Part shown: piece by piece, positions 4,687-64,000 of the stretch
Layout of the letters: every line of letters starts with the position of its first letter
How positions within the stretch are numbered: the stretch's first letter is position 1
Source: Staphylococcus sp. CAG:324
Lineage (GTDB): Bacteria > Bacillota_I > Bacilli_A > ML615J-28 > CAG-313
Assembly: GCA_000433035.1 (NCBI GenBank)
Contig: FR890815.1
Location: 21,800 to 85,799 of the forward strand
Reading direction: 5' to 3'
DNA: 64,000 bases
Translations under genes and position numbers: made by a program
The notes under the pieces: model-generated
Seen by the model: the letters and a program-made list of their open reading frames with translations, nothing else
Database searches by the model: none
What the model was told of the DNA's origin: nothing

Positions 4687-4691
4687 AAGAT

Positions 4692-34184: not shown

Positions 34185-34196
34185 GAGAAGGCTATT

Positions 34197-34427: not shown

Positions 34428-34428
34428 T

Positions 34429-40519: not shown

Positions 40520-40532
40520 AAGGAGGGAAAAG

Positions 40533-41744: not shown

Positions 41745-41745
41745 A

Positions 41746-43443: not shown

Positions 43444-43511
43444 AATACATAGTTGATATATAGGTGTTAATAGCAGTCACCAAAAATTTTATATAAATAA
43501 GGAGAAAAGGA

Positions 43512-43991
43512 ATGGAAAAATCATTAAAAAATAAAAAAGGTTTTACATTAACCGAATTGATTGTTGTCATTGCTATCATTGGAATTCTTGCGGCAGTGTT
43601 AATTCCATCAATTACAAGTTATATTAGAAATGCAAAAGAATCTGCAGCCATTCAAGATGCAAGCGCAATGTATCAAGAATTAATTGCAGAGGTTAATGTT
43701 ACAGATGATATTTATGAAACTTTAACTACAAATAAATATTATATTGTTGAAACCGATGGGGGATATTATGTTTTATTAGAAAATGGTTCATGTAATGTTT
43801 CACCATTAAAGGATAATAGTGTAGTTGATGCCGCAAGTGCTGCAACTGAATTCAATATAGAAGGAGTGAGTACTTTTTTTGTTCTAAGAAAAGTAAATGA
43901 AGCATACCGCGTTTTGGAACTTTCAAAAGAAAATACAACTTGGACAGAATCACAAACTCCAATTTATCCAACTCAAACACAGACAGAATAA
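43512..43991 (+). CDS. Type IV major pilin candidate
   Basis: RBS AAGGAGAAAAGG. Class III signal KKG|FTLTELIVVIAIIGILAAVLIPS. 159 aa. Confidence 0.75.
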   Translation: MEKSLKNKKGFTLTELIVVIAIIGILAAVLIPSITSYIRNAKESAAIQDASAMYQELIAEVNVTDDIYETLTTNKYYIVETDGGYYVLLENGSCNVSPLKDNSVVDAASAATEFNIEGVSTFFVLRKVNEAYRVLELSKENTTWTESQTPIYPTQTQTE

Positions 43992-44010
43992 AGTAGATGA
44001 GGATGAATAT

Positions 44011-49746: not shown

Positions 49747-52700
49747 AAAAGAAAAATGTTGTATATATAATAGGTATTGTATTGTTTATATCGTTCATTG
49801 CTATTGATGTTTTTAAAGTTAAAGAAAAAGGCGGTCTGTTTAGTATTTTTAATTTTGAAGAAACCAGTGAAAAAAAACAAATAGAAAATACTTTAACTGA
49901 AATTGAAATCAATGAAAAATTAAATGGTGAAAAAATTATGTATTTAGGTGATACGCTGCAACTAACTTTAAAGGCAAATATCGTTACAAATTTGAATGCT
50001 TGGAATTATAACTGGTTGAGTACTGACCAAAGTATTGCCTCAGTATCAACAACAGGTAGTGTATATGGGAAAAAAATAGGTGAAACAACAATTAGAGTAA
50101 CGAATAAAAATGATGCCAATCTTTATGATATTGTAAAAATTAAGGTTATTGAAAGAAACAACAAATTAGAATTCTCGAACGAGTATCAACAAAAATTGCA
50201 ATTAATAAAAGGAGAAATAAAAAAACTTGATATTCATATAGGCGGGAGTGTGGCTTTAGGTAAACTTGAATGGATATCTAGTGATGAAAAGATTTGTACA
50301 GTTCAGGATGGTTATCTTTATGCTAAAGAAAATGGTCAAGTAACCATTACAGTAAAAAGTTTAGTAGATAGTAGATATTTTGATAGTATAAATGTTGAAA
50401 TATATAATGTATTAGATAAAGTTGAAATTGCTGACGATATTTCTATTCATGCAATATATATTAATAATAAAGAAATAAATGGCAGTATGTCGGATTATGA
50501 TATATATGTTGGGGATACAATCACCATCAATTCATCTTGTAATACTTCTAGTAATGCAATGGTAAATTTTTCTTTACAGACAGATACTATATCTTTTAAA
50601 AGTACAGAACAATATGTTGCAACAGTTAATTGCAATCGCGTTGGTAAAGCAGTCATTGATATTTCTAGTAAGTATAATCATTTATTAAACAAGACTTTAG
50701 AATTTGAGATCAAACCTCGAGAAGTGGATAATCTCACATTAAAAAATCCTACCTTACAAAACGTAGAAAATGGTTGGATATATGAAATGCATGAAAGAGA
50801 TGCTGTTTTTCTTGAAGTATTAGGATCAAATGAAGTATTAGATCAAGATGATATAATTGTAGAGATTGCAAATCAGGATATTGCTATAGTGAATAATGGA
50901 TATTTCATTGCTAAGCAAGTTGGAGAAACGCAAGTTACAATAAAATACCGATATGATGAGAACCAAAAGATTAGTTTTACTCTTTTTGTTAGTGAGAATA
51001 CCAATCAAAAAATTGAATATATAGCCATTGAACAGCCTACATTAAATGATAAACCCTTTGCTTTAAATACATATCAAAAAAATAATGTTACAGTATTAGA
51101 TACAATCAGTTTTTATATTGTTGTAACTCCTTATATTTATGCCCAAAGTGATAATTATTTAATTTATGCAACTAATCCTGATGTTGCATCTTGTACAACT
51201 ACTTACAACAATCATCAATATATTGTAAAAATTAATTTTCTAGAAATAGGGAATACCCAAATTATTATTCAATTTTTTGATAATCTAGAACAAGAAATTA
51301 TTTTAGATTTTCATGTCGAGAATATGATTTTTGATCTATCTGCTAAAGCAGCTCTTGAAATGGAGGTTGGAAAAACATATAGTTTTTTCACTACGATTAC
51401 AAACTCATTATCCAAAAAATTAAATTATACTTATACATCATCCAATCCTCAATCAGTTATCATCGGAAGTAATGGGGATATGATGGCAATTGGTGAGGGG
51501 ACAGCAGATGTTTGTGTAACAGTAGATGATGGGAAGACAGTTAAATCCAAAACCCTTACTATTCATGTTAAACAAAATTATATAGAATATCAACCAGTGA
51601 CGCAAATGAGTTATACAACATACTTAAAAGAAGATGATCATTATGTTGAAGTTGATTTTTCAACCCGAATGTTAAATGTTTTTCAAAACGCATATATGAG
51701 CATAAATGTCATGCCAAATTTTAATAATGCTAATAATTATCAAATTATAACTAGCAATCCAGATATTCTATCTATTACGTATAGTAACAATATGTATCAA
51801 CTTTATGCTTTAAGTGCAGGTATTGCAACAATTTATATTAAAAATTATGAAAATAGTGATTTAGATCTTTCTTTTGAGATTAAAGTATGTGAAGTATTGC
51901 CAAAATATGTAATAAGTATATTAGAAAATAATGTTTTATCATTTGATGAATATCAAAAAATTAATTTAAATGTTGATCCAAATGCAACATTTTCAAAAGT
52001 TTCTTATCGCTTTTCCACTCCTAATGTCATTAAAATTATCAATAACACAATCATTCCCTTACATGCAGGAAAAACGACTGTTATTATTGAAGTAGATGAT
52101 CAAGATGATGCAACCTCAAATTATTATTTTTCTTTTCCTGTTGAGGTTTTACCAAATACTAAAATTGGTTTTATGAAATATTCAACGTTAGAAATAATTA
52201 GTTTTTGTTTATTTCATATCATTATTTATGGGCTACTAGGAGTATATTTTTGGTTATTATTTCAAAACTTGCAAATGAAAAAAATATTAACCATTACGGC
52301 TATTGTTGTTATTCCTCTTGCCATATGTTGTTTGCCAGAAGTATTAAAATTAGAAGATAGCAATAAAAGTATCATTATGATATCTATGGGACTCAATAGC
52401 ATATGTTGCGGTGCTGCCATTGTTTTGACATATTTTATAATGAAATGTAAAGGAAAGAAAAAAATGAAAATGAGTAAATATATAATTCTTATTTTAAGTT
52501 TTTTAATGATACTGACGATAACTTCTTGTAAAAAAGAACAAGATAGGATAGAAGATAATTATAATTTTATTTTAAATGTTGAGAAGCAAAATGCTAAAAT
52601 AGCAGAACTTGGGAAAACCATTACGAATCAACAATTAATATATTTACAAGAAGATAGTTCAACATTAATTTATGTGAAATATAATTTTACAGAAAATATG

Positions 52701-52907
52701 TCAACACAAAAAATCATATATCGCTTTTTCAATGATTTAGATGAGTATAGATTGTTTTTTAATCAATATGATAATTTTTTAGATGGTAACTTTTTAGAAG
52801 TAAATGAAGAAATCTTAATGATAGCAACCACATATCAATATATTGATAAAAAAAGTTTTAGTCAATTATATGATGTCATTCATCATCAGTATGTTATAAT
52901 TGAATAG
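49743..52907 (+). CDS. Large Big_2 (bacterial Ig-like group 2) repeat surface protein with a C-terminal multi-TM segment and an embedded lipoprotein-like module
   Basis: GTG start after GGAGG. N-terminal signal anchor. At least 6 Big_2-like repeats, then about 4 TM helices. In-frame MKMSKYIILILSFLMILTITSC at 52464. Confidence 0.7.
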   Translation: MKKKNVVYIIGIVLFISFIAIDVFKVKEKGGLFSIFNFEETSEKKQIENTLTEIEINEKLNGEKIMYLGDTLQLTLKANIVTNLNAWNYNWLSTDQSIASVSTTGSVYGKKIGETTIRVTNKNDANLYDIVKIKVIERNNKLEFSNEYQQKLQLIKGEIKKLDIHIGGSVALGKLEWISSDEKICTVQDGYLYAKENGQVTITVKSLVDSRYFDSINVEIYNVLDKVEIADDISIHAIYINNKEINGSMSDYDIYVGDTITINSSCNTSSNAMVNFSLQTDTISFKSTEQYVATVNCNRVGKAVIDISSKYNHLLNKTLEFEIKPREVDNLTLKNPTLQNVENGWIYEMHERDAVFLEVLGSNEVLDQDDIIVEIANQDIAIVNNGYFIAKQVGETQVTIKYRYDENQKISFTLFVSENTNQKIEYIAIEQPTLNDKPFALNTYQKNNVTVLDTISFYIVVTPYIYAQSDNYLIYATNPDVASCTTTYNNHQYIVKINFLEIGNTQIIIQFFDNLEQEIILDFHVENMIFDLSAKAALEMEVGKTYSFFTTITNSLSKKLNYTYTSSNPQSVIIGSNGDMMAIGEGTADVCVTVDDGKTVKSKTLTIHVKQNYIEYQPVTQMSYTTYLKEDDHYVEVDFSTRMLNVFQNAYMSINVMPNFNNANNYQIITSNPDILSITYSNNMYQLYALSAGIATIYIKNYENSDLDLSFEIKVCEVLPKYVISILENNVLSFDEYQKINLNVDPNATFSKVSYRFSTPNVIKIINNTIIPLHAGKTTVIIEVDDQDDATSNYYFSFPVEVLPNTKIGFMKYSTLEIISFCLFHIIIYGLLGVYFWLLFQNLQMKKILTITAIVVIPLAICCLPEVLKLEDSNKSIIMISMGLNSICCGAAIVLTYFIMKCKGKKKMKMSKYIILILSFLMILTITSCKKEQDRIEDNYNFILNVEKQNAKIAELGKTITNQQLIYLQEDSSTLIYVKYNFTENMSTQKIIYRFFNDLDEYRLFFNQYDNFLDGNFLEVNEEILMIATTYQYIDKKSFSQLYDVIHHQYVIIE

Positions 52908-52914
52908 TAATTGA

Positions 52915-52946
52915 AACAAACCAAGTTAACTTGGTTTGTTTTTTTA
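52915..52946 (+). terminator. Rho-independent terminator after the adhesin gene
   Basis: AAACAAACCAAG-TTAA-CTTGGTTTGTTT followed by TTTT. Confidence 0.6.
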
Positions 52947-53148
52947 AAAAAAAGGCATATTTTTATAAAAAACATACTATTATTTTATGTAAAATGTTCC
53001 AAAACATTGATAAAATCGATTTTAACATTTATATTATATTGACAAACTATCTTAAAAATAGTATAATTATAACATATCTTGTCGATTATTTAGATATTAA
53101 AATGGATGAGAAAAAGAATTATTTAGAATTATGTAAGGAGAATTTAAA

Positions 53149-53766
53149 ATGAAAAGAAAGACGTTAACGTTAACTTTATGCTTATTATCATGTTTAGCAT
53201 TGATTGGTGTTGGTTTTGCGGCATGGATCATTACTTCTGACACTAAACAAGAAATAGAAGGTAACATTTCAGTTGATACCGTAACAGATAATAGATTGAG
53301 TGTTGAGACAAGTTGGAAAGATGATAAAAATGCCATTGTTTTTGGTTGGAAAACTGGTGAGTATACCTATTCTTGGTTAAAGAATACAGATCCAACTTAT
53401 GCAGAAAATCTAACAGTTACTCTTGTTGTGAATGTAAAAGATAGTGGGGGTAGTCCTATTGATGCCCAAACTGTTAATGCAACAATTACGGGAGATGACG
53501 CATATACTACTGCTGTATCTAGCAATTTAGTTAATGCTTTGCCTACATTAACAGCTCAAAAGCAAGAAACTGGTGTTTATCATATTACAATTACTCTCTC
53601 ATGGGGTAGTGCATTTAATAATCAAAACCCTATGGAATATTATAATAGTCAAGATTATACATCAGAGTTAGCAGATCAAGCTAAAACCAATTTAACCGCT
53701 CTTGAGGCATTGAAAACTAGTAAATTTACTGTTACAGTAACGGTAACACCAACTGAGGCAGAATAA
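53149..53766 (+). CDS. Secreted protein with a SipW-cognate-type (TasA/camelysin-class) signal peptide
   Basis: RBS GGAGAA. N-terminal K/R followed by a hydrophobic core and GVGFAAWIITSD, compared with the TasA 'GGGTWAAF' context. Shares the C-terminal WGSAFNNQNPMEYY motif with the next gene. Confidence 0.6.
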   Translation: MKRKTLTLTLCLLSCLALIGVGFAAWIITSDTKQEIEGNISVDTVTDNRLSVETSWKDDKNAIVFGWKTGEYTYSWLKNTDPTYAENLTVTLVVNVKDSGGSPIDAQTVNATITGDDAYTTAVSSNLVNALPTLTAQKQETGVYHITITLSWGSAFNNQNPMEYYNSQDYTSELADQAKTNLTALEALKTSKFTVTVTVTPTEAE

Positions 53767-53793
53767 TATTATAAATAATAAGAAGGTTGTAAG

Positions 53794-54507
53794 ATGGCTA
53801 AATTAACAAAAAATTCTTATAAAAGAAAAGTTATTTTATTCGGTGTTTTATTATTTATGTCTATTGCTTTGATATCAACAGGTTTTGCGGCATGGATAAT
53901 GTCAACGAATGCAAATTATGAAGATGATGGAAATGTGAGTGTTGGTACTGTTACAGATGGATCAATAAAGTTGACGGATGTTGCGCTATCAACCGATTCA
54001 ATCAAATTTGAACCATTAGAAGAAGATACAACAGGTAGAGTTAGAAATGATGGAACTAATTTTGAATCATTACAGATAGTAGTAACAGGAAAAGTATCTC
54101 CTAGAGATATTTTAGGTGAACTTACGATTGAACTGCAAATGGAAGAAAAAGTGAAAACAGCTCTACAAGCTGCTGCTGATAAAAATTATATTATTTTACC
54201 AGAATGCGCAAATTCGGCAGTGGATTTAAAAACTTTGGGTGGTGCATGTACTGAAAATGAAGAGGGTGGATACGATTTTACTTATACGATTGAATTTAAA
54301 TGGGGAAGTTTTTTCCAAAATTTAAATCCAGGTGAGTATTATGACGAAAATGAAACGGGTACAAAAGTATCAGACGAAGAAGTGAAAAAAATTCTAAAAG
54401 AGTTAAGAGCTACTATTTATGGATATGACGTCGATGCATCAGATGAAATAATCAATGCAGCGGTTGGTCCTACTTTTAAAGTAGTAATCAATGCTAGGGC
54501 AAATTAA
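53794..54507 (+). CDS. Paralogous secreted protein with a SipW-cognate-type signal peptide
   Basis: STGFAAWIMSTN signal context and the shared C-terminal WGSFFQNLNPGEYY motif. Confidence 0.6.
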   Translation: MAKLTKNSYKRKVILFGVLLFMSIALISTGFAAWIMSTNANYEDDGNVSVGTVTDGSIKLTDVALSTDSIKFEPLEEDTTGRVRNDGTNFESLQIVVTGKVSPRDILGELTIELQMEEKVKTALQAAADKNYIILPECANSAVDLKTLGGACTENEEGGYDFTYTIEFKWGSFFQNLNPGEYYDENETGTKVSDEEVKKILKELRATIYGYDVDASDEIINAAVGPTFKVVINARAN

Positions 54508-54512
54508 TTCAA

Positions 54513-55520
54513 ATGTCTTCTGCTGAAATTATTTCCCTCATAGTTACAATCATCGGGGTATTTAGTTTTGCAACAATATTTACGATATTATATCAATCAT
54601 ATGCAACTTCACAAATAAATGAAATTCAGTCTGGAAAAAAAGATCTTGAATTGATCGATGAAGTAATCTATGAAAGACAAGAAAAAATTAAAAAGCGCAA
54701 GATGGTAACAAAGATAGTTAAATCTATTTGTTTCTATCTTGCCTTATTCTTCATTATACCTTTATTTATTTTTTCATTAATTAATCGATTTCAAAATAAT
54801 ATAACAATGATTGGTAATAAAACCATTATGGTTGTTGCCTCAGGCTCAATGAGTAAGAAAAATGACGCAAATGCTTATCTAAATAGTAACAATTTGAACA
54901 ATCAATTTCAAACGTATGATATAATTGTTTTGGAAAAGGTTGAAAATGCATCAGATTTGAACAAATACGATGTTATTGCTTATCGAAATGATCAAGGAAT
55001 CAATGTCATTCATAGAATAATTGAAATAGAAGATGGAAAATATGTAACCCGTGGTGATGCCAATGACGCAAGTGATAAATATCATCCAACTTTTGATGAT
55101 GTAATTGGAAGATATACAGGTAAGAAAATACCTAGTATAGGGATATTTATTATGTTTTTACAGTCATATGCTGGTATCATCACGATTATTTCATTAATTT
55201 ATTGTTTAATCATGATTGATAAAATTTCTAATAAAATAAATACAGCTCAAAAAAGAAGAATTGAACAATTAGAAGAAGCAATTGATTATACCGATGAATT
55301 AGAAGTTGAAAAAATAAAGGCAGAATATGTTGAGACAATTTATTATAAGGGATATGCTTATCATTTTAATGAAACAGGGTTTGTTGAAAAAACTAAGATG
55401 AAAGATGGTCCCTATTTAGAAAAATCGAATAAGACAATGATTAAAGAAGTGCTTAATTTAAAGACTTCAGAAAAAATTGCCGAAGAAGTCGTAATTGAAA
55501 ACGATAATCAAGGAGAATAA
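54513..55520 (+). CDS. sipW: Signal peptidase I of the archaeal/eukaryal SipW type, with N- and C-terminal extensions (335 aa)
   Basis: Catalytic-Ser box VVASGSM. IHRI and TRGDANDASD match SipW THRI/TKGDNN. One TM before the catalytic domain, one after, plus a charged tail of about 100 aa. Confidence 0.75.
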   Translation: MSSAEIISLIVTIIGVFSFATIFTILYQSYATSQINEIQSGKKDLELIDEVIYERQEKIKKRKMVTKIVKSICFYLALFFIIPLFIFSLINRFQNNITMIGNKTIMVVASGSMSKKNDANAYLNSNNLNNQFQTYDIIVLEKVENASDLNKYDVIAYRNDQGINVIHRIIEIEDGKYVTRGDANDASDKYHPTFDDVIGRYTGKKIPSIGIFIMFLQSYAGIITIISLIYCLIMIDKISNKINTAQKRRIEQLEEAIDYTDELEVEKIKAEYVETIYYKGYAYHFNETGFVEKTKMKDGPYLEKSNKTMIKEVLNLKTSEKIAEEVVIENDNQGE

Positions 55521-55521
55521 G

Positions 55522-57321
55522 ATGATGAACAAACCTTATTTTACAAGAAAAAATTTAATATTTATATCATTAGCAATATTTTATTCATTTTTATTGTTAT
55601 TTACAGGCCTTTGTATAGAAGGATCACATTCTTTTGCTAATAAAAATAATCCACTAGCACAAGTGGCGCAAGCACTTCATTTTAAATCAATTAGTTGTGG
55701 TGTAACGGGCTATGTTGCTTTGATACTTGTAGCAATCTATGTTAGTGTTTTTGTCACTATCTTTTTATATGAGAAAAGGTTTGCTATTGTCAATAACAAA
55801 AAACCATTTAGTTTGAAAATGATTTTAATATATATCAGTTCTTTTATTTTATGTGCGTTATTATCAGTAGGTGTGGGAATTCTCATTCAAAGACCATTAG
55901 ATGCTGAAAACATTGGTAACATTATGCTTTTTATTTGGCAAACTATTTTATTGACAACTTGTATATATGTTTTATTATTTTTATTTATTGGTGGTATGTT
56001 AATGTTTGTAGTCAACTATATTTTAGTTGATAAACCATTTAGAGCATATGATAAAAATGAACCGATTACTTTTGATGAGGAAGATACTAAAATTGACGTC
56101 ACTACTAATTTTGATGCAACACTAAATGCAACGGCATCTTCTATTGCTGGCGGACAGATTACAACCGCTACTTCAAGTATGCCAAATGAAAGTATTGTTC
56201 GCACAGTTGAAAAGTTAGATGATCGGGAAAAAGTTTTTCCTGCTTTATCTATGATGGATACTACTTATGATGGTTATGCAATAGAGAAAATAGATAGTGA
56301 TACATATAGTTTAGAAGAAATTAGTATTCGCTTTCGCAATTATCTTGCAAAAGAAGAAAAACTATATTTTGATCTAGATACCATTAGATTTTTTGTCAGT
56401 GGATTTGCGGCATCACACTTTATGATTTTAGAAGGGTTAAGTGGTACTGGTAAATCAAGTTTGCCTAGATATTTTGCAAAATTTATTCATGCTGATGTTT
56501 TATTTATTCCTGTTCAAGCAACATATCGTGATAAGACAAATCTAATTGGATATTTTAATGATTTTTCAAAAACTTATACCGAAACAGAGTTTTTGATTTC
56601 ATTATATCATGCCAATTATAATCCCGATCAAATTCATTTTTTTGTTTTAGATGAAATGAATATTTCTAGGGTTGAGTATTATTTTGCTGACTTTTTATCA
56701 GTATTAGAATATCCAAAAGAACTTTGGAAATTAAAAATTATGCAACTTCCGTATGGATTTGTACCACCTGCTAAACTAGAAGATGGTTTTATTACAATAC
56801 CTGAAAATTCCTATTTTGTTGGTACCGCAAATAAAGATGATTCAACCTTTACAATTACTGATAAAGTGTATGATAGAGCAATAACAATTGATTTTGATGA
56901 TCGCAATATTCCTTTTGAAGTAAAAGAAGAAGTGAGTAAAATTCATATTAGCAAAACACATCTGCAACATTTATATCAAGAGGCATTGAATAATCCTAGT
57001 TATCAGATGACAAAAGGTGATTATGATAAATTTCAAACTGTTTGTGATTTTATTTATGACAAGTTTGATATTACTTTTGGTAATCGTATTTTGAATCAAA
57101 TTGCAAAACTCGTGCCTGTTTTTGTTGCATCCGGTGGAACAAAAGAAGATGCTATTGATTTTATTGTTTCACGAAAAATAATTAGTAAAATTGAAGGTCG
57201 TTTTGAAGAATATGTTAAGGGTGCTTTGAAAGATTTATTAACTTTAATAACGAAAACATACGGAATAGATGTTTTATATCGTAGTGAAAAAGTAATTCAA
57301 AGTTTAATAAGAAGGTTATAA
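55522..57321 (+). CDS. Membrane-anchored McrB-family (AAA_5) NTPase
   Basis: ATG 1 nt after the sipW stop, with an AAGGAGAA RBS. About 190-aa N-terminal domain with 4-5 TM helices. Walker A LEGLSGTGKSSLP, Walker B FFVLDEMN, and the McrB-like FVGTANKDDS ... DKVYDRAITIDF segment. Confidence 0.65.
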   Translation: MMNKPYFTRKNLIFISLAIFYSFLLLFTGLCIEGSHSFANKNNPLAQVAQALHFKSISCGVTGYVALILVAIYVSVFVTIFLYEKRFAIVNNKKPFSLKMILIYISSFILCALLSVGVGILIQRPLDAENIGNIMLFIWQTILLTTCIYVLLFLFIGGMLMFVVNYILVDKPFRAYDKNEPITFDEEDTKIDVTTNFDATLNATASSIAGGQITTATSSMPNESIVRTVEKLDDREKVFPALSMMDTTYDGYAIEKIDSDTYSLEEISIRFRNYLAKEEKLYFDLDTIRFFVSGFAASHFMILEGLSGTGKSSLPRYFAKFIHADVLFIPVQATYRDKTNLIGYFNDFSKTYTETEFLISLYHANYNPDQIHFFVLDEMNISRVEYYFADFLSVLEYPKELWKLKIMQLPYGFVPPAKLEDGFITIPENSYFVGTANKDDSTFTITDKVYDRAITIDFDDRNIPFEVKEEVSKIHISKTHLQHLYQEALNNPSYQMTKGDYDKFQTVCDFIYDKFDITFGNRILNQIAKLVPVFVASGGTKEDAIDFIVSRKIISKIEGRFEEYVKGALKDLLTLITKTYGIDVLYRSEKVIQSLIRRL

Positions 57322-57325
57322 TTTT

Positions 57326-58591
57326 ATGAAACTCATCGAAGAGTTAAAACTAAAAGAAGTTATTAAAAAAATAAGAAAATATAAAGATGAACATCGAAGT
57401 ATTAAATTTTTCTATCGAGATTTAGATAATTTAAAACTTCCATCTTTGCAAGATTTCTCTTTTAAGAAAGATGATGAATTCTTTGATGAAGTGAATTTTA
57501 TTCTAAGCGTGATAGTTTCTATTATTGCTCATCCTAGTCTTTCTAATAAAGGAGAAGACATTATTGTTAGATCAGAACTAGCAGGGCATATTTCATCTGA
57601 TTCTTTTCAACAAGTATGTAAAGATAATAGACTTTGGAAAGAAAAAAATGATGAAATGGTACCTGAATATGTGCATCACTATCAATATACTGATGATATT
57701 CAAATTTATGAAAATATTTTTATCGGAATGCTTATCAATCTTATACGTTTGGAGTTAAATAAATATAGTGAATTTTATGCATCACTGATTCCTTCGGTAG
57801 AATCAAATAATGATAAATATTTAGAAAATAAGATTGCGGAAAAGATGATTACTAAAATTGAAGCATTACAAAGAAAACAAATGTTTATTCAAAATACTTC
57901 TTTTTATAAAGAAATTTCTAAGTGCAATCTTCATCTTACAAAAGTTTTACCTACTAACATTTTATTAAAAAATCGTTTATACAATTATTGTTATAAATTT
58001 TATCTTCAATTTATTAAAAGTGAAGATGAAAATAGATTACTTGAAGAACTTACTATCTATTATAAATATGTGATATTAAAATGTTTCAAAGAAAAAAACT
58101 TTGTATTAGATAATACGAAAAGTCAAAACTATAATTGTTTATCTTTTATATATAAAGATTATAGACTAAAACTTTCTCTAGAAGAAAACATACCATGTAT
58201 TAATCTTGATATTTCATATGGTTCAATTCCTGCTAAACATCATTTAATCATTAATACGGAAAATAAACTTCAGATGAATCAATTTTTTGATTACAACAGT
58301 ATATCTAATGATTTGATTACAATTTGGCGTATATATGATTTAGAAAATGCAAATAAGCCATATAATAATCAACTAGTTTCTGAAAAAAAATTAGTGTCAT
58401 TTTGGCTGAATTCTAAGTTGCAAGAGATTTTTGCAAAAAAGGAATTATATATGAAATATTGTCCTGTTTGTAAAAGTAAAAATATAGAAAATAATCAAAA
58501 ACTATATACATGTTGTGATTGTGGAAGTATGTATACATTTAAAGACGTCAATCAGGTTGATACCATTTGGTTTTTAAAATTAAGGAGGTAG
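57326..58591 (+). CDS. Hypothetical partner protein with a C-terminal Zn-ribbon (CPVC...CCDCGSMY). Candidate McrC-like component.
   Basis: 421 aa, directly downstream of the McrB-like gene as in McrBC pairs. No PD-(D/E)xK signature could be confirmed by eye. Confidence 0.45.
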   Translation: MKLIEELKLKEVIKKIRKYKDEHRSIKFFYRDLDNLKLPSLQDFSFKKDDEFFDEVNFILSVIVSIIAHPSLSNKGEDIIVRSELAGHISSDSFQQVCKDNRLWKEKNDEMVPEYVHHYQYTDDIQIYENIFIGMLINLIRLELNKYSEFYASLIPSVESNNDKYLENKIAEKMITKIEALQRKQMFIQNTSFYKEISKCNLHLTKVLPTNILLKNRLYNYCYKFYLQFIKSEDENRLLEELTIYYKYVILKCFKEKNFVLDNTKSQNYNCLSFIYKDYRLKLSLEENIPCINLDISYGSIPAKHHLIINTENKLQMNQFFDYNSISNDLITIWRIYDLENANKPYNNQLVSEKKLVSFWLNSKLQEIFAKKELYMKYCPVCKSKNIENNQKLYTCCDCGSMYTFKDVNQVDTIWFLKLRR

Positions 58592-58596
58592 CTTTG

Positions 58597-59355
58597 ATGG
58601 AAGAAAACAAACTTTCTCAAGAAGAACAAAAAGCCACAATTATGATCAATGACCTCTATAAATCCTATGGTGATAAAGATGTTTTAACGGGGTTAAATTT
58701 AGAAGTTTATGAAAAAGAGTTATTTGGTTTTATTGGTAGAAATGGTATTGGAAAATCAACAACAATTGATTGTATGATTGGTTCTAAAAAATTTTCTAAA
58801 GGCGAGGTATATATCTCAGGTTTTGATATAAAAAAATATCCTCTTCAAGCAAAGCAAACGTTTGGTTATGTTGCTAGTGAGCCAACTTGTTATGAAGAAA
58901 TGACAGGATATGATTACTTAGAATTTATTGCTAGTATATATGGTTTAGGTGAAGAAGATTTTAATCACAATTACAAATATTTATGTACAAGACTTCAATT
59001 CAATTTAGAAGAATTGTCAAATCCCATTTCTGATTATTCTCATGGTATGAAACAAAAATTATGTTTAGTTGCAAGTTTGTTGCATAGTCCTAAAATTTGG
59101 ATTTTAGATGAACCTACAGTTGGTCTTGATATTATGGCTGTGGAAGAATTGAAAAAAATGATGAGAGAGTATGCAAATCATGGGAATACCGTTTTTGTTA
59201 CGAGCCATAATATTGAATTAGTATCTAAAATTTGTGATAGAGTAGCGATTATTAACAATGGCAAAGTGGTGGAATTATTTGATTTGAATAAAAATCCTAA
59301 TAAAAGATTACAACTTGCTAAAATCTTTATTGAAACGTATGGAGGACGAGAATGA
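58597..59355 (+). CDS. ABC transporter ATP-binding protein
   Basis: Start at the ATG at 58597 after AAGGAGG. Walker A GRNGIGKST, signature YSHGMKQKL, Walker B ILDEPTVGLD. Confidence 0.85.
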   Translation: MEENKLSQEEQKATIMINDLYKSYGDKDVLTGLNLEVYEKELFGFIGRNGIGKSTTIDCMIGSKKFSKGEVYISGFDIKKYPLQAKQTFGYVASEPTCYEEMTGYDYLEFIASIYGLGEEDFNHNYKYLCTRLQFNLEELSNPISDYSHGMKQKLCLVASLLHSPKIWILDEPTVGLDIMAVEELKKMMREYANHGNTVFVTSHNIELVSKICDRVAIINNGKVVELFDLNKNPNKRLQLAKIFIETYGGRE

Positions 59356-60944
59356 TTAACCTCCTTGCGAAAGATTTTAAATTGATGTTTGGAAAAGAAA
59401 AAAGTATTGCTAAAAAAATAATTACTATTTTAATAACAATCTTTTTTCTTACTTGTTTTATTGGAATTGAGGTATTTTTGTTTACAACTATTTTGAATAA
59501 AATAGGAAAATTTCATCAAGCACCAATGGCCTTTATGAATGTATTTTTATTTATTATTTCTATTCTTATTACTATTTCTGGAATCTTTAGAGCGATGAAA
59601 CTTTTTTTTAATCAAAAGGATATTGAACAATTATCCACAAAACCAGTTAGTAATAGTGCAATTATTTTATCTAAATTAGTCTTTCTATTCATTACTCATT
59701 ATGCAATTAGTATTTTATTTATCTATCCATTATTTATTGCATATGGTATTCACTATGCAATGACATTAAAATTTTATTATCTAGCCCTTTTTTATCCCAT
59801 TCTTTCTTTCTTTTTTGAGATGGGAGTTGCTCTTCTTTTTATCTATCCTTTTTGGCTTTTAAAAAATTATTTAAACAAGCATCTATTAGTAAGATTTCTT
59901 TTAATCGTAATATTGCTTGTGATTGGATGTTATTTTTACGCAAAAGTTTTGAATCTGTTTATTGAAATGATTGCGGGGGGAAATATAAATCATTTATTTA
60001 CCCAAACAATGATGGATAAACTCATCAATTTTAGAAAATATGAGATTCCAATTAATTTTTTAACAGATATTTTTATTCAAAATAGATATAGTAGTATATT
60101 ACCATACTTAGGTATATCATTGGGTATTTTTATTCTTGGTTTAAGTATTACTATTTTTACTTTTAGTTATGTAAGAAATATTTTTATTTCTAATAAGAAA
60201 AAACATAGAATAAAAGATTACAAAAAACAATCTATCCAAAAAGCTTTAATCAAAAAAGAAGTTATACTTTTAACTAAAAATCAAAATTATACTTTATCTT
60301 TTACAGGGCTTTTGATTGTTCAACCCTTTTTAGTATATTTGGTAATCAAAGCTTTAAATACAATTTTTACTTCTGGTATTTTTGCTTATTATATTTCAAT
60401 TGTACCATCTTTTATTCCATTATTAGATATTTTAATTTTAATGTTATTTACCGTTATTATCAATCAGGGAGCAAGTCAATATATTCAAATGGAGAAAAAG
60501 ACGATTAAAGTGATGAAAACAATACCAGTTTTACCTCGAATTCAATTGTTGATAAAAGTAAGTATACCTTTGCTACTTTCTTTTACATCCCTTTTTATCA
60601 CTTTACTTGTCTTATTGGTGTTAAAAACGATTACGTTTATCACTTTCATTTTTGCTTTTGTATTAGTAAGTTTATTATTATTCATTTATGATGTGATTTC
60701 TTTAAAGGAAGAATTGAATATTAGAAATCATAAACCAAGAAGGTCAATTGTTTCTAATCTATACTCATATATTTTACCAATTATATATTTTATAGTGACA
60801 ACAATTCTTTCATATTTTGGTATGTCGATATATATTGCCTATTTGATAGGATGTATTGTATTTGTCATACTAGGAATACCACACGTGTTTCATTTGAAAA
60901 AAAATATGGAATCTTTATTTATGGATTTGGATGTGATCAATTAA
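59352..60944 (+). CDS. Polytopic ABC-transporter permease-like membrane protein
   Basis: Overlaps the ABC ATPase stop (ATGA). About 12 predicted TM helices in two bundles. Confidence 0.6.
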   Translation: MINLLAKDFKLMFGKEKSIAKKIITILITIFFLTCFIGIEVFLFTTILNKIGKFHQAPMAFMNVFLFIISILITISGIFRAMKLFFNQKDIEQLSTKPVSNSAIILSKLVFLFITHYAISILFIYPLFIAYGIHYAMTLKFYYLALFYPILSFFFEMGVALLFIYPFWLLKNYLNKHLLVRFLLIVILLVIGCYFYAKVLNLFIEMIAGGNINHLFTQTMMDKLINFRKYEIPINFLTDIFIQNRYSSILPYLGISLGIFILGLSITIFTFSYVRNIFISNKKKHRIKDYKKQSIQKALIKKEVILLTKNQNYTLSFTGLLIVQPFLVYLVIKALNTIFTSGIFAYYISIVPSFIPLLDILILMLFTVIINQGASQYIQMEKKTIKVMKTIPVLPRIQLLIKVSIPLLLSFTSLFITLLVLLVLKTITFITFIFAFVLVSLLLFIYDVISLKEELNIRNHKPRRSIVSNLYSYILPIIYFIVTTILSYFGMSIYIAYLIGCIVFVILGIPHVFHLKKNMESLFMDLDVIN

Positions 60945-60945
60945 T

Positions 60946-63417
60946 ATGACAAAGAAAAACTTAATTATTTTATTGTTAATTCCCTTTTTAATTGCTTTGC
61001 TTGGTGTTGTAACGATTAATACGACCTTTCATTTCATTGATAATGATATTATTGCAATTCAATGGGATTATGATGATACCGAGGCTTTCAAGTTACAAGA
61101 TAATTTATATTTGTTAGAAGCGGTTGGTGTCAATCAAAAAAACTATCCAGCAGGGGCTGGTAATACACTTGTATGGAGTATTAGAAATCGTAATATAGAA
61201 GATGACAATGTGTATGGTGAAATTGTTAAACAAGATCAGCACTATTATTTAAAAACACTTGCGTGTGGAGAGGTGATTATCACATGTTCAAATGAAAAGG
61301 GTACAATTTTTAAATCCATGCATGCGATCATTTATGAAAATGGAGCCATTCTTATTCAAACGAAAATTAGAGGTTCTCAAAACAATATTGATCAAACAAT
61401 TTACTATGGTGAATATGATTTAGAAAATCAAAATAAAATAAAGGCAAGTGTTGATTTAGAAATTACAGCCGTACCAAAGAGTATCTCTTCGCTACTTAGA
61501 ATTGAAAACCAAACGGATAATATTGAAATTGATTTAATGAATCATACATTAGAAATTAAAGATGCTGGTTTTGCTTCATTTACCATTAGTTGTGGTGATG
61601 AAAATATTGCGAAAAATGCTACTTATTCCTTTGAAGTAGTTGAAAATGGAGTGAATGTATATAGTTATGATGATCTATTGAATTGTTCTAATTATTCAAA
61701 TACTGGTGAAATTATTGTTCTTCGAAAATCATTTGAATCACTAGAAAATGCTTATCAGATGAGTGCTAGTGGAGAGGTTCTCTTAGAAGATGGCAAGCCA
61801 GTTTTAAAAGAAAATAATGTTGAATGTTTTGGTAACTATAATCCAGTCACTAAAAAATTTAATTTTAAAAATGAAATCTATCGTTTTGTTACAACCTATA
61901 ATAAAAATTATATTGATCAGTGGAATCAAAGTGTTGCAACAAGTGGCGGTAGCAATTACATATCAACTGAAATTTTAGTAGGTCTTCATATTCAAAAAAA
62001 CTTTTATGGGAATGGATATACGATTAATATGCATAATCTGACTTATCCAACTGAAATAATTGAAGTAGATAGTGGTGATGGAACGTTTGTATCTATTCCT
62101 CATTTAGCTAAAGATGATTTATTTAGAGGTCCTCTTCCTTTTTATGCTTTGGGTGACCATAATAATATGCCATTGGTTGAAGCTTTTGGTCAAGATAATA
62201 TTGGAATGTATGTGGAAGGCAATGATATTTTAATCAATGATGTCTATGTACGAAATTGTGATTTTGGTAATAGATTGGCTAATCTTGATACAGTGGGAAC
62301 AGTTTTAGAAGTGAGTGGAAATAATATAAAAATTATGAATGCTAGACTTGCGAATGGTAAAAATGTTTTACGTAGTTTTTCTTCCATGCATGTAGAAGTA
62401 ATCAATAGTATGTTAAGTTATGCAAGAAACTTTTTGGTTTCGCTTGGTACGAATGAGTACATTCTTATTGATGGCAGTAAAACGTATGATTTTACCGATT
62501 TAAATGGGAATTTGACATCACTTCAAATAGAAGATTATTTTCAAACGAATGGGGTTGGTGACAATATTTTAAATGCCTATTTACAAGCCAATTTTAGTTC
62601 AAAAGAGAATATGAAAAAAGCTCTTTTGTCTATGCAAAGAGCGCTTAGTAATGAAAAGTTAATTCAAGATGAAGAGAATAATCCTATTTACAAAGGTAGT
62701 ATGAAAATAAAAGATACTTTCTTTTATCAAAGTGGAATTGCGGCAATCTCTCTTGAATCTATGTTTAATGGACCTTTCTTATATTCGAATATTCCTAGTG
62801 TAATTTGGGAAGTATTAGGAATGCTTGAAACACAAGAAGGTATACCTCTTGATAGTCTTAAAACAAGTAAGATTGCGGGGTTATCTTATCCAGTTGAATT
62901 AGAAATTTGTGGTAATACGAAATTTTATGATTATAAAGCTACGGATAGTGTGGATATTAGTGGATTAATTACCGAAAATATATCAAAGTTTGCTCAATCC
63001 ATTGATCCAAGTTATGAGGGAATAATAGATATTGATAAAATATTTCCAATTAAACAATATTTAATTGACAAGGCCACAACTCAAGGTTCAATTTATACAG
63101 ACAATGGTAAAACATATATAAATTTACCTATTGCGTATTATGGTGGTGGACTTAATTTATCTAAAGTTGAGGTTTCCACTGAGGATATAACGATTCATTT
63201 CAATCGAGAAATTGAAATTGATTTGATTGATAATTATTTAAATTTAGGACAAGGTTCTAATACAGTTGAGATGTTAAAAAATATGATGCTAAAAGCAGTA
63301 ACGGTGGTAACCGGTTATGAACCATTCAAATTTGTATGTATGAAAGGTGATGGTTATTTATATGGAGAAACACCAAAGATTTCTGATTTAATTTTGAATA
63401 ACATAAAAGGAGAATAA
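60946..63417 (+). CDS. Large surface protein with an N-terminal signal anchor and a probable right-handed beta-helix (pectate-lyase-like) repeat region
   Basis: Signal anchor LIILLLIPFLIALLGVV. Repetitive N/G/V-rich segments with the N-x-(L/I/V) periodicity typical of PbH1 repeats. Confidence 0.5.
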   Translation: MTKKNLIILLLIPFLIALLGVVTINTTFHFIDNDIIAIQWDYDDTEAFKLQDNLYLLEAVGVNQKNYPAGAGNTLVWSIRNRNIEDDNVYGEIVKQDQHYYLKTLACGEVIITCSNEKGTIFKSMHAIIYENGAILIQTKIRGSQNNIDQTIYYGEYDLENQNKIKASVDLEITAVPKSISSLLRIENQTDNIEIDLMNHTLEIKDAGFASFTISCGDENIAKNATYSFEVVENGVNVYSYDDLLNCSNYSNTGEIIVLRKSFESLENAYQMSASGEVLLEDGKPVLKENNVECFGNYNPVTKKFNFKNEIYRFVTTYNKNYIDQWNQSVATSGGSNYISTEILVGLHIQKNFYGNGYTINMHNLTYPTEIIEVDSGDGTFVSIPHLAKDDLFRGPLPFYALGDHNNMPLVEAFGQDNIGMYVEGNDILINDVYVRNCDFGNRLANLDTVGTVLEVSGNNIKIMNARLANGKNVLRSFSSMHVEVINSMLSYARNFLVSLGTNEYILIDGSKTYDFTDLNGNLTSLQIEDYFQTNGVGDNILNAYLQANFSSKENMKKALLSMQRALSNEKLIQDEENNPIYKGSMKIKDTFFYQSGIAAISLESMFNGPFLYSNIPSVIWEVLGMLETQEGIPLDSLKTSKIAGLSYPVELEICGNTKFYDYKATDSVDISGLITENISKFAQSIDPSYEGIIDIDKIFPIKQYLIDKATTQGSIYTDNGKTYINLPIAYYGGGLNLSKVEVSTEDITIHFNREIEIDLIDNYLNLGQGSNTVEMLKNMMLKAVTVVTGYEPFKFVCMKGDGYLYGETPKISDLILNNIKGE

Positions 63418-63421
63418 GAAC

Positions 63422-64000
63422 ATGAAAAAGAAAATCCTAAATTTAATAACTATGATATTATTATGTTTTGTTTTAGCAGGATGTTCTAGTTTCTTTGGTG
63501 ATAATGAGTCACTACAAATTGAAAATATTCAAGCTGAAAGTTTAGAAAATGGTGACATTAAAATAACAATTACATATGTAAATGAAGTTTTAGATCCAAC
63601 CATTTTTATTGTACCAAAGGGTGATACAGGCTCAACAGGGGTAGGAATTAAAGAAATAATAACGACTAAAAAAGAAGATGGTAGTGGTTCAATTTTAACA
63701 ATTACTTATACGGATGATTCTATTTCACCAACAATTGTGGAAGTAAAAGATGGTGTTTCGGTTAGCAGTATAGATCCTGTTGTCAATCCTGAAACTGGAG
63801 AAATAGTAATTTATATTAGATATAGTGATGGGACGAGTTCAGAACCGATGGTACTTCCAAAAGGAGAAGATGGTAAAGATGGCATTTCGGTGATCGGCAT
63901 TGACCAAAGAATCAATAGAGATTTTAGTGTGACTTTGACTTTTAAAATGTCGCAAGGTGAAGATGTCATTGTGAATATTCCTGCACCTCAACAAGGAGAA
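63422..64000 (+). CDS. Lipoprotein (partial at window end) with repeated beta-rich modules and short Gly-X-Y-like triplets
   Basis: Lipobox VLAGCSS. Repeated TITY...DxSISPTIVEV modules. PKGDTGSTG and PKGEDGKDG motifs. Confidence 0.5.
   Translation, partial: MKKKILNLITMILLCFVLAGCSSFFGDNESLQIENIQAESLENGDIKITITYVNEVLDPTIFIVPKGDTGSTGVGIKEIITTKKEDGSGSILTITYTDDSISPTIVEVKDGVSVSSIDPVVNPETGEIVIYIRYSDGTSSEPMVLPKGEDGKDGISVIGIDQRINRDFSVTLTFKMSQGEDVIVNIPAPQQGE

What the first reader, a model, noticed from the sequence alone, without database searches (positions are those of the whole stretch)
53149..64000. Tightly coupled operon: two SipW-signal proteins, extended SipW, membrane McrB-like AAA+, Zn-ribbon protein, ABC exporter, giant surface proteins
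Nine consecutive + strand genes have stop/start overlaps or gaps of at most 6 nt (for example sipW TAA at 55518-55520 and ATG at 55522). Two paralogous secreted proteins with TasA-class (SipW-cognate) signal peptides sit directly upstream of a SipW-type signal peptidase. In Bacillus the tapA-sipW-tasA operon has no AAA_5 NTPase, no ABC exporter and no beta-helix protein. Here SipW is followed by a membrane-anchored McrB-family NTPase with a Zn-ribbon partner, an ABC transporter, an 823-aa beta-helix-like surface protein and a lipoprotein. The gene set suggests a dedicated export/assembly machine for a SipW-processed fibre or sheath. Alternatively it is a SipW fibre operon with an McrBC-like defence pair inserted into it. 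I do not recognise this architecture.
Basis: partly seen in the sequence, partly recalled or inferred. Interest (0 to 1): 0.78.

Follow-up and report, generated by a model that had tools for sequence, protein, structure and literature searches.

The report
SipW surface-fibre operon with McrBC-like GTPase
A nine-gene operon, conserved as a block in uncultured gut bacteria, joins a dedicated signal peptidase and its secreted substrates to a membrane-anchored relative of the McrBC restriction motor that has lost its nuclease, so a DNA-restriction engine seems to have been re-used to build a cell-surface structure.

Summary
The genes are real and mostly as described. Seven of the eight junctions are -4 to +5 nt; p1-p2 is 27 nt. 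A perfect sigma-70 promoter lies upstream.

The order p1-p2-sipW-GTPase-McrC-like-ABC ATPase-permease-820 aa protein-lipoprotein recurs collinearly in about 76 GTDB species loci and most of 80 metagenome loci, in Bacilli and Clostridia MAGs. Where the contig reaches, SipW is present in 66/67 loci and the ABC genes in 70-73 of 70-73. This refutes the inserted-defence-pair reading.

The GTPase has four or so N-terminal membrane helices and the N-x-D-[DE] motif of the 'NxD' McrB branch. Its partner has the McrC N-domain (DUF2357) and a Zn ribbon, with no conserved nuclease residues.

The substrates carry their own N-terminal signal, G-F-[AS]-[AS]-W: 172 hits in N-termini against 1 elsewhere. It is not TIGR04088, and p1 folds as an Ig-like sandwich, not like TasA.

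The closest described system is 'CoCoPALM' (Bell et al. 2024), named in one paragraph and never characterised. This cassette is a separate clade with a different architecture.

Best reading: a SipW-dependent surface filament or adhesin assembly machine with a GTP-driven McrBC-derived membrane module. The function is inferred, not shown.

The parts
53039..53067 (+). Candidate operon promoter, TTGACA-17 nt-TATAAT
   Evidence: 12/12 match, the best in the region. It lies 80 nt upstream of the p1 ATG and just after the hairpin and T-run at 52911-52945 that ends the upstream gene.
53149..53766 (+). p1: 205-aa secreted protein with the dedicated signal MKRKTLTLTL...LIGVGFA|AW. Likely the major, fastest-evolving substrate
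53794..54507 (+). p2: 237-aa paralog of p1 with the same signal motif (STGFAAW)
   Evidence: BLASTP gives 33% identity, E 4e-16. Present in 61/63 loci where the contig reaches.
54513..55520 (+). Extended SipW-type (archaeal/ER-type) signal peptidase I, 335 aa, with three hydrophobic segments and a conserved cytoplasmic C-terminal tail
   Evidence: TIGR02228 scores 64.2 bits against a cut-off of 51.85; the SipW equivalog model scores 65.6, below its cut-off of 190. S112, M113, H167, R168, G181 and D182 are invariant. The extra N-terminal TM, the 'GKRDIELIDE' motif and the tail 'ETIYYKGYAYxFxExGF' are conserved.
55522..57321 (+). Membrane-anchored McrB-like GTPase, 599 aa: about 4 TM helices (9-171), a linker, an AAA+ domain (Walker A GLSGTGKS, Walker B VLDEMN, signature GTANKDDST) and a C-terminal helical domain
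   Evidence: PDB best match is McrB, E 1e-3. PADLOC PDC-M26A gives 6.7e-39, GTPase core only. There are 7723 representative homologs. The N-x-D-[DE]-ST motif is conserved. The 4TM type forms its own clade. The start at 55522 is supported by a 100%-identical 599-aa database protein.
57326..58591 (+). McrC-like partner, 421 aa: DUF2357 (McrC N-terminal domain), a beta-rich middle domain with no conserved catalytic residues, and a C-terminal CPxC...CxxC Zn ribbon
58597..59355 (+). ABC transporter ATP-binding subunit (DrrA/ABC-2-like), 252 aa
   Evidence: PF00005 gives 8e-22; TIGR01188 drrA gives 3.6e-51, below its cut-off. It is the most conserved gene of the cassette at 62-98% identity. Present in 73/73 loci.
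59352..60944 (+). Polytopic permease, 530 aa, about 12 hydrophobic segments. Start overlaps the ATPase stop by 4 nt
   Evidence: for the segments. No Pfam or PDB match. The length of 530 aa is kept in nearly all orthologs. Present in 70/70 loci.
60946..63417 (+). 823-aa protein with a single N-terminal membrane anchor and a large extracytoplasmic part, possibly beta-helical
   Evidence: One TM at residues 1-32. No Pfam or PDB sequence match. 2 of 37 orthologs hit Beta_helix at about 1e-3. Present in 62/62 loci.
63422..64000 (+). Lipoprotein, cut by the window end; about 366 aa in the 90% relative L003. Repeated beta-rich modules and a C-terminal Listeria-Bacteroides repeat in orthologs
   Evidence: The lipobox ...VLAGC|SS is. 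The ortholog in L001 hits PF09479 and TIGR02543 at 1.3e-8. Present in 61/61 loci.

Best explanation
This is the first nine genes of a conserved operon of about eleven genes. It most likely builds a SipW-dependent cell-surface filament or adhesin complex, and it has a McrBC-derived GTPase module as an integral membrane component.

Shown:
- The whole gene set is inherited as one collinear block.
- The substrates share a private N-terminal signal: a K/R-rich start, a hydrophobic stretch, then G-F-[AS]-[AS]-W. These are p1 and p2, and in relatives also a third small protein and a protein of over 1100 aa downstream.
- The peptidase keeps its Ser/His/Asp catalytic residues.
- The GTPase keeps its Walker A and B motifs and the N-x-D-[DE] signature. 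It has membrane helices where McrB has a DNA-binding domain.
- The McrC-like partner keeps the GTPase-activating N-domain and a Zn ribbon but has no conserved nuclease residues.

Inferred:
- The precursors enter the membrane by the Sec pathway.
- SipW cuts after G-F-A. That leaves an invariant Trp at P2', the kind of aromatic P2' residue that makes TasA need SipW.
- The released Ig-like subunits assemble on the surface, with p1 as the variable major subunit and p2, p3 and the giant protein as minor or tip components. The 823-aa anchored protein and the lipoprotein would form the base.
- By analogy with McrBC, the GTPase forms a hexameric ring plugged by the McrC-like protein. Fixed to the membrane, it would spend GTP on mechanical or gating work on the precursors' cytoplasmic N-termini, on the peptidase's cytoplasmic tail, or on the ABC exporter. 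In that respect it would resemble the hexameric ATPase of type IV pili.
- The role of the ABC exporter is open. It could clear cleaved signal peptides or export a non-protein component.
For: Block conservation and collinearity in L001-L078 and most of L082-L161: AAA 69/70, sipW 66/67, p2 61/63, abcA 73/73, abcP 70/70, big823 62/62, lipo 61/61. The loci come from Bacilli and Clostridia MAGs, and per-gene identities fall together.

The signal motif occurs 172 times within the first 70 residues and once in 410,807 other residues. It is also present on downstream p3 and on giant proteins. The p1 signal is nearly invariant while the mature part diverges. An aromatic P2' residue as the reason for SipW dependence is taken from the abstract of PMC10269814.

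The GTPase motifs are. No conserved nuclease residues appear.

Two other contexts support a link to surface filaments. In the CoCoPALM-like locus L080, a TM plus coiled-coil NxD GTPase and a McrC homolog sit with three proteins carrying TasA-class signals and a SipW. In L113, L125 and L144, a stand-alone 3-4TM GTPase/McrC-Zn-ribbon pair lies directly downstream of pilD-pilC-pilB.

There is no compositional anomaly, one strong promoter, and no full-length copy on plasmids or phages.
Against: No experiment exists for any member, and every homolog is annotated as hypothetical.

p1 shows only a generic Ig-like fold, and nothing demonstrates that it polymerises. The donor-strand idea rests only on a disordered, conserved N-terminal segment.

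The relatives of the GTPase, the CoCoNuT-type NxD GTPases and PADLOC PDC-M26A, are predicted defence proteins. L001 and L002 have a restriction-modification gene and a resolvase upstream.

No precedent exists for a McrB-like GTPase acting on proteins or membranes. The permease and the 823-aa protein have no recognisable family.
Confidence: 0.58

Rival explanations
1. The cassette is a membrane-associated conflict or anti-phage system of the NxD McrBC (CoCoNuT/CoCoPALM) lineage. The GTPase/McrC-Zn-ribbon module senses invading nucleic acid or infection. It then controls processing or release of surface proteins, for example shedding or masking receptors, or decoy fibres. It would not be powering assembly.
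For: The GTPase core matches the PADLOC candidate PDC-M26A at 6.7e-39. It belongs to the NxD branch, whose described members are predicted defence systems. The Zn ribbon could bind nucleic acid. L001 and L002 have an MmeI-like methyltransferase/restriction gene and a resolvase just upstream. p1 evolves fastest, as expected for a phage-exposed surface protein.
Against: There is no nuclease or other recognisable toxic effector. The McrC-like protein has no PADLOC match. Flanks vary and are often housekeeping or surface genes rather than defence islands. No copies occur on plasmids or phages. Seven of the nine genes encode membrane or secreted proteins. Block conservation from Bacilli to Clostridia is unlike the patchy spread typical of defence islands.
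Confidence: 0.15
2. The operon is a SipW-dependent export system for a non-filamentous surface coat or a set of adhesins. The GTPase/McrC pair acts only as a GTP-sensing checkpoint or regulator, tying export to the cell's nucleotide state. It would not be a mechanical motor.
For: p1 has a plain Ig-like fold, as in many non-polymerising surface proteins. The downstream giant protein and the Flg_new lipoprotein look like adhesins. No evidence for polymerisation was obtained.
Against: The nearly invariant signal and mature N-terminus (W26, I28, G38, V42, D43) suggest a role beyond cleavage. Tandem expansion of p1/p2 paralogs, up to six, resembles pilin gene sets. The stand-alone pair sits directly after pilB in type IV pilus operons.
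Confidence: 0.22
3. This is a TasA-like SipW fibre operon into which an unrelated McrBC-type defence pair was inserted.
For: McrBC-like pairs are mobile and often occur as two-gene modules. Stand-alone 3-4TM GTPase/McrC pairs do exist.
Against: The pair is present at the same position in 69/70 loci, with SipW in 66/67 and the ABC genes in 70-73 of 70-73, across two classes and down to 27% McrC identity. Its divergence tracks that of its neighbours. It is translationally coupled on both sides, with gaps of 1 and 5 nt. It lacks both a nuclease and a DNA-binding domain.
Confidence: 0.03

Closest known systems
[quoted passage not shown] 2024, eLife 13:RP94800 (PMC11090510). Computational only; its analysis was deferred to a later paper that I could not find
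   Same: Both have an NxD-type McrB-like GTPase tethered to the membrane, a McrC homolog, and a genomic association with a SipW-type signal peptidase and with secreted proteins bearing an aromatic-P2' signal.
   Different: CoCoPALM is described as an FtsB-like single TM plus coiled coil fused to the GTPase, with coiled coils on both partners. L080 fits that description: a 507-aa GTPase, a 533-aa McrC with a K/E-rich tail, and SipW downstream. Here the GTPase has about 4 TM helices and no coiled coil. The McrC-like protein ends in a Zn ribbon. SipW lies upstream and is extended. An ABC exporter, an 820-aa anchored protein and a lipoprotein are obligatory. The substrates are an unrelated family, and only the signal region aligns. 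The GTPases form a separate clade.
Bacillus subtilis tapA-sipW-tasA operon (TasA fibres)
   Same: Both have a dedicated archaeal/ER-type signal peptidase encoded next to its substrates. Both have a cleavage context with small residues at -3 and -1 and an aromatic at P2' (TasA ...GTWA|AF, here ...GFA|AW). Both have a major substrate plus a paralogous or accessory substrate.
   Different: There is no TIGR04088 match and no TasA or camelysin fold. The peptidase has an extra TM and a cytoplasmic tail.
McrBC type IV restriction system (E. coli, T. gammatolerans)
   Same: The GTPase shares an AAA+ core with Walker A and B motifs and an Asn/Asp signature. The partner shares the DUF2357 (McrC N-terminal) domain. 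The two genes are adjacent and coupled.
   Different: The N-terminal DNA-binding domain is replaced by membrane helices. The signature is NxD[DE] rather than NxxD. No PD-(D/E)xK residues are conserved. The pair is embedded in a secretion and surface operon.
Type IV pilus machinery (PilD peptidase, pilins, PilB hexameric ATPase, PilC platform)
   Same: The logic is the same: a dedicated peptidase, several subunits sharing a conserved N-terminal signal, a hexameric NTPase at the membrane and polytopic membrane partners. Related GTPase/McrC pairs sit directly after pilB in some genomes. A type IV pilus cluster lies 7-10 kb upstream in this window.
   Different: There is no sequence relationship. 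The signal here precedes the cleavage site as a classical signal peptide, rather than remaining as the pilin core helix. The NTPase is an AAA+ GTPase, not a PilB-type ATPase.

Membership tests
SipW / archaeal-ER-type signal peptidase I | Match to TIGR02228 above its curated cut-off, and Ser/His(/Asp) catalytic residues | tested here: met
   64.2 bits against 51.85. S112, H167 and D182 are invariant and D188 nearly invariant in 31 sequences. The Bacillus SipW equivalog model NF046067 is below its cut-off (65.6 against 190), so this is not an ortholog of B. subtilis SipW.
TasA-class SipW-cognate substrates (TIGR04088) | N-terminal region matches the TIGR04088 signal model | tested here: not met
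   There is no hit for p1, p2 or two related N-termini even at E <= 10. For comparison, L080 proteins give 15-16 bits against a cut-off of 19.
TasA / camelysin fold | Mature protein has the TasA jellyroll (Peptidase_M73-like) fold | tested here: not met
McrBC type IV restriction system | McrB-type AAA+ GTPase core | tested here: met
   phmmer against the PDB gives McrB as best match, E 1e-3, aligned over residues 285-455 and including Walker A, Walker B and the Asn signature.
McrBC type IV restriction system | McrC partner with DUF2357 N-domain | tested here: met
McrBC type IV restriction system | PD-(D/E)xK nuclease domain in McrC and a DNA-binding N-domain in McrB | tested here: not met
   There is no nuclease Pfam hit in 62 members. 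No D/E/K is invariant between residues 226 and 379. The N-terminus of the GTPase is four hydrophobic segments.
NxD branch of McrB-like GTPases (Bell et al. 2024) | Signature Asn-x-Asp, strictly conserved and usually followed by D or E | tested here: met
   GTAN-x-D-[DE]-ST occurs in the window protein (NKDDS) and in about 125 of 150 representatives. The definition is quoted from the paper.
CoCoPALM | [quoted passage not shown] | tested here: not met
   There are 4 TM segments and zero coiled-coil-like windows by a crude composition proxy in the window-type GTPases. The McrC-like protein has a Zn ribbon instead of a coiled-coil tail. The 4TM type forms a separate NJ clade from the 1-2TM type.
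CoCoPALM | Association with signal-peptidase-family genes | tested here: met
   SipW is present in 66/67 loci.
PADLOC candidate defence system PDC-M26 | Both the A and B components are present | tested here: not met
   Only PDC-M26A matches, and only over the GTPase core (profile positions 307-433 of 724). No other cassette protein matches any PADLOC model at E <= 1 except chance-level hits.
ABC-2-type exporter | ABC ATPase plus a recognisable ABC-2 permease | tested here: inconclusive
   The ATPase is clear (PF00005 at 8e-22, drrA subfamily at 3.6e-51). The permease has about 12 hydrophobic segments but no Pfam or PDB match.
Right-handed beta-helix surface proteins | Match to PF13229 or a beta-helix fold | tested here: inconclusive
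   The window protein has no hit. 2 of 37 orthologs hit at E about 1e-3.

The most novel reading that the evidence does not exclude
Membrane-anchored, nuclease-less McrBC derivatives (an NxD GTPase hexamer plus a McrC-like plug) are a previously unrecognised class of GTP-driven motor or gate for Gram-positive surface-filament biogenesis. They would have been recruited independently to SipW-dependent fibres (this cassette and CoCoPALM) and to type IV pilus operons. That would be the motor of a restriction enzyme exapted to work on proteins at the membrane.
Probability: 0.35. Interest if true: 0.85.

Novelty: new variant of a known kind. Interest (0 to 1): 0.7.

Why it matters
Only DNA-directed roles have been demonstrated experimentally for McrB-type GTPases (my recollection; the CoCoNuT relatives are merely predicted to target RNA). 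Here a McrB/McrC pair has lost both its DNA-binding and its nuclease parts and gained membrane helices. It is locked into an operon of secreted and membrane proteins in abundant, uncultured human and animal gut bacteria; one ortholog alone was found in 409 blocks of the assembly collection.

If the pair drives or gates assembly, it defines a new energy source for protein export or pilus biogenesis in Gram-positive bacteria. It also gives a concrete, testable example of the CoCoPALM idea, which was raised in 2024 and never followed up.

The private signal G-F-[AS]-[AS]-W is a simple marker for cataloguing the surface proteins of these lineages. Those proteins are likely adhesins or antigens in the gut.

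Tried and rejected
1. TIGR04088 and TasA membership: there is no HMM hit and no TasA-like fold. Rejected.
2. A defence-pair insertion: rejected by co-occurrence.
3. Pfam and NCBIfam for the 823-aa protein, the permease, p1 and p2 gave nothing useful. PDB profile searches for the 823-aa protein and the permease found nothing.
4. PADLOC: only the GTPase core matches a candidate system. 'PDC-M26' is not mentioned in the literature library.
5. Homology between the p1 family and the L080 TasA-class proteins: only the signal region aligns, and not significantly.
6. Plasmid and phage collections: only GTPase-core matches to unrelated systems, so there is no evidence of a mobile element.
7. Rfam on the whole window gave no hit.
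8. Conservation of the upstream type IV pilus cluster next to the cassette: not conserved, with only three pilD-like hits in 81 loci.
9. The afdb50 fold library was unavailable.
11. Kaur et al. 2020 (PMC7159879) was checked for a description of such systems. It mentions neither McrB/McrC nor signal peptidase.

Full report
**Observation**

The region 53149-64000 holds nine consecutive + strand ORFs:
- p1, 53149-53766, 205 aa
- p2, 53794-54507, 237 aa
- a signal peptidase, 54513-55520, 335 aa
- an AAA+ protein, 55522-57321, 599 aa
- a 421-aa protein, 57326-58591
- an ABC ATPase, 58597-59355
- a 530-aa polytopic protein, 59352-60944
- an 823-aa protein, 60946-63417
- a lipoprotein starting at 63422 and cut by the window end

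The junction gaps are 27, 5, 1, 4, 5, -4, 1 and 4 nt. The coupling is real, but the first junction exceeds the stated 6 nt. The upstream gene ends in a hairpin plus T-run at 52911-52945 (read by eye). A perfect TTGACA-17-TATAAT promoter follows at 53039-53067. G+C content is uniform with the rest of the window.

**Identity of the parts**

*Peptidase.* It passes the archaeal/ER-type signal peptidase I model TIGR02228 (64.2 bits against 51.85) but not the Bacillus SipW equivalog model. In 31 orthologs S112, M113, H167, R168, G181 and D182 are invariant. The family also has an extra N-terminal TM helix, a 'GKRDIELIDE' motif and a conserved cytoplasmic tail 'ETIYYKGYAYxFxExGF'.

*AAA+ protein.* It has four hydrophobic stretches in residues 9-171. 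Its core aligns best to McrB among solved structures (E 1e-3, residues 285-455). It matches the PADLOC candidate PDC-M26A over the core only (6.7e-39). An exhaustive search finds 7723 representative homologs of the C-terminal 360 residues, with variable N-termini. The signature downstream of Walker B is GTAN-x-D-[DE]-ST in the window protein and in about 125 of 150 representatives. This is the 'NxD' variant that Bell et al. 2024 use to define a major branch of McrB-like GTPases.

*Remaining genes.* The ABC ATPase is unambiguous. The permease and the 823-aa protein match nothing in Pfam or the PDB. Only 2 of 37 orthologs of the 823-aa protein touch Beta_helix, at about 1e-3.

**The substrates**

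p1 and p2 are paralogs (33% identity). In 58 p1 homologs the first 28 residues (MKRKTLTLTLxxLxCLALIGVGFA[AS]W) are nearly invariant, while the mature part drops to about 40% identity.

Across all fetched loci the motif G-[FY..]-[AS]-[ASTG]-W occurs 172 times within the first 70 residues of ORFs. It occurs once in 410,807 residues elsewhere. It also marks a third small protein and a protein of over 1100 aa just downstream of the lipoprotein in relatives. One of these is L003, the 90%-identical relative, labelled 'uncultured Mollicutes bacterium UMGS116'.

By the -3/-1 rule, cleavage after G-F-A would put the invariant Trp at P2'. The abstract of PMC10269814 states that TasA's aromatic P2' residue makes it a poor substrate for the general peptidase and a client of SipW. 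So the logic of a SipW-cognate signal holds.

**Conservation**

The close relative P0066 (69% identity) lies in the same nine-gene arrangement. A scan of one genome per GTDB species with the McrC-like alignment returned 79 loci. 76 of them are collinear cassettes from Bacilli MAGs (labelled Mollicutes, Acholeplasmatales, Anaeroplasmataceae, Bacilli) and Clostridia MAGs (Christensenellaceae, Eubacteriales, Oscillospiraceae, Ca. Scatosoma).

Where the contig reaches, the counts are:

| gene | present / loci covered |
|---|---|
| GTPase | 69/70 |
| SipW | 66/67 |
| p2 | 61/63 |
| ABC ATPase | 73/73 |
| permease | 70/70 |
| 820-aa protein | 62/62 |
| lipoprotein | 61/61 |

A metagenome scan with more distant 4TM GTPases again returned mostly full cassettes, some with up to six tandem p1/p2 paralogs. 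Identities of all nine genes fall together. The ABC ATPase and the GTPase are the most conserved. p1, the lipoprotein and the McrC-like protein are the least conserved. This refutes the inserted-defence-pair alternative.

**Relation to what is known**

Bell et al. 2024 (PMC11090510) describe 'CoCoPALM' in one paragraph. These are NxD GTPases fused to an FtsB-like TM plus coiled coil. [quoted passage not shown] The analysis was deferred to a later paper. I found no follow-up.

The three outlying loci L079-L081 fit that description. L080 has the following, in order:
- three proteins with ...STFAWFTS signals (TIGR04088 at 15-16 bits, just under the cut-off)
- a small TM/coiled-coil protein
- a 416-aa protein
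- a 507-aa TM plus coiled-coil NxD GTPase
- a 533-aa McrC homolog with a K/E-rich tail
- a 264-aa SipW-type peptidase

The window cassette differs in several ways:
- The GTPase has about 4 TM helices and no coiled coil.
- The McrC-like protein ends in a Zn ribbon.
- SipW is upstream and extended.
- The ABC exporter, the 820-aa protein and the lipoprotein are obligatory.
- The substrate family is unrelated beyond the signal.

In a neighbour-joining tree of 144 GTPase domains, the 4TM type is a nearly pure clade of 46 leaves holding all 45 4TM sequences. It is separate from the 1-2TM clade and from the coiled-coil types. I therefore class the cassette as a new variant of the CoCoPALM-like kind, not a member.

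**A third context**

Sixteen metagenome loci carry only a 3-4TM GTPase (542-565 aa) and a McrC-Zn-ribbon partner. In L113, L125 and L144 the pair lies directly after pilD-pilC-pilB on the same strand. L135 has pilB nearby, and L097 and L124 have an adjacent type IV pilin gene. That is 6 of 16, against about 3 of 140 cassette loci.

The window itself has a type IV pilus cluster 7-10 kb upstream on the same strand: pilD 39671-40519, pilC 40533-41744, pilB 41728-43443 and pilins 43512-45825. That adjacency is not conserved among cassette loci. These observations tie the membrane McrBC-like module to surface-filament genes in three different settings.

**Mechanism**

Shown: the block inheritance, a private signal, an intact peptidase, intact GTPase motifs, and loss of the nuclease and DNA-binding parts.

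Inferred: precursors are inserted by the Sec pathway and cleaved by SipW at GFA|[AS]W. The Ig-like subunits then assemble into a surface fibre or adhesin complex. This may involve the conserved, disordered mature N-terminus acting as a donor strand, as in TasA. The complex would be anchored by the 823-aa protein and the lipoprotein, with p1 as the variable major subunit. The GTPase would form an McrB-like hexamer plugged by the McrC-like protein at the inner face of the membrane. It would use GTP for mechanical or gating work on the precursor n-regions, the SipW tail or the ABC exporter.

I put 0.58 on this overall reading. I put about 0.9 on the narrower claim that the GTPase/McrC pair is an integral part of the system.

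The rivals are:
- a regulatory-only role for the GTPase in export of non-filamentous adhesins (0.22)
- a membrane-linked defence function (0.15)
- an unrelated insertion (0.03)

**Verdict**

The finding is real and robust. The nearest prior art is one uncharacterised, computationally named sister system.

Noticed in passing
window 39671-45825 (+): A complete type IV pilus gene set lies upstream on the same strand: prepilin peptidase (A24) 39671-40519, PilC/T2SSF 40533-41744, PilB/T2SSE 41728-43443, and two N_methyl pilins at 43512-43991 and 43897-45825. A preprint on C. perfringens proposes that type IV pilus proteins help SipW-processed BsaA polymers cross the wall (PMC11580942).
   Followed up: partly
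L113:4679-11426, L125:2550-9483, L144:3-3868: Stand-alone 3-4TM NxD GTPase plus McrC-Zn-ribbon pairs lie directly downstream of pilD-pilC-pilB on the same strand, with gaps of 19-69 nt. 6 of 16 stand-alone loci have type IV pilus genes nearby, against about 3 of 140 cassette loci.
   Followed up: partly
L080:3127-13605: This is a CoCoPALM-like locus. It has three proteins with ...TFAWFTS signals, a small TM/coiled-coil protein, a 416-aa protein, a TM plus coiled-coil GTPase, a McrC homolog with a long K/E-rich tail and a SipW-type peptidase. A 527-aa protein follows whose sequence looks like an EAL (c-di-GMP phosphodiesterase) domain; that was judged by eye and not tested.
   Followed up: partly
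L084, L085, L091, L096 (GTPase 800-870 aa, partner 1050-1190 aa): This is a further architecture: a 4TM NxD GTPase with a long N-terminal extension, paired with a very large McrC homolog, and with no SipW or ABC genes nearby.
   Followed up: no
window 49743-52907 (+): A 1054-aa ORF combines Big_2 and HL_N-beta repeats, a multi-TM stretch and, near residue 880 in the same frame, a lipoprotein-like start (MKMSKYIILILSFLMILTITSC...). It may be two genes with no stop codon between them, or a fusion.
   Followed up: no
window 32652-35976 (+): An AMP-binding enzyme and an MBOAT protein lie in tandem and look like dltA/dltB, which D-alanylate teichoic acid. If so, the organism has a Gram-positive envelope, although its 90% relative L003 is labelled 'uncultured Mollicutes bacterium'.
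   Followed up: no
window 47680-49746 (+): A 688-aa protein has three Listeria-Bacteroides repeats (Flg_new, 3.6e-42) and BspA-type leucine-rich repeats. Together with the 1054-aa protein and the cassette, it makes this stretch a surface-protein island.
   Followed up: no
L001:1-7320, L002:6751-7356: In the 69% relative the cassette is preceded by an N6_Mtase/Eco57I-type gene and a resolvase on the opposite strand, directly upstream of p1. This could be a defence-island flank or an invertase acting on the promoter.
   Followed up: no
L137, L139, L142, L149-L153 (about 3600-4900): An extra p1-like gene with the G-F-[AS]-[AS]-W signal lies on the opposite strand just upstream of p1. L116, L119 and L123 carry up to six tandem p1/p2 paralogs. 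This may reflect antigenic or phase variation of the major subunit.
   Followed up: no
L003:11422-15480; L001:19084-21800: Beyond the window end, relatives continue with a p3 protein of about 228 aa (signal ISIGFSSW) and a giant protein with a related signal (VGMSTW or IGYASW). The giant protein is at least 1125 aa in L003 and 1615 aa in L001. The operon therefore probably has about eleven genes.
   Followed up: partly
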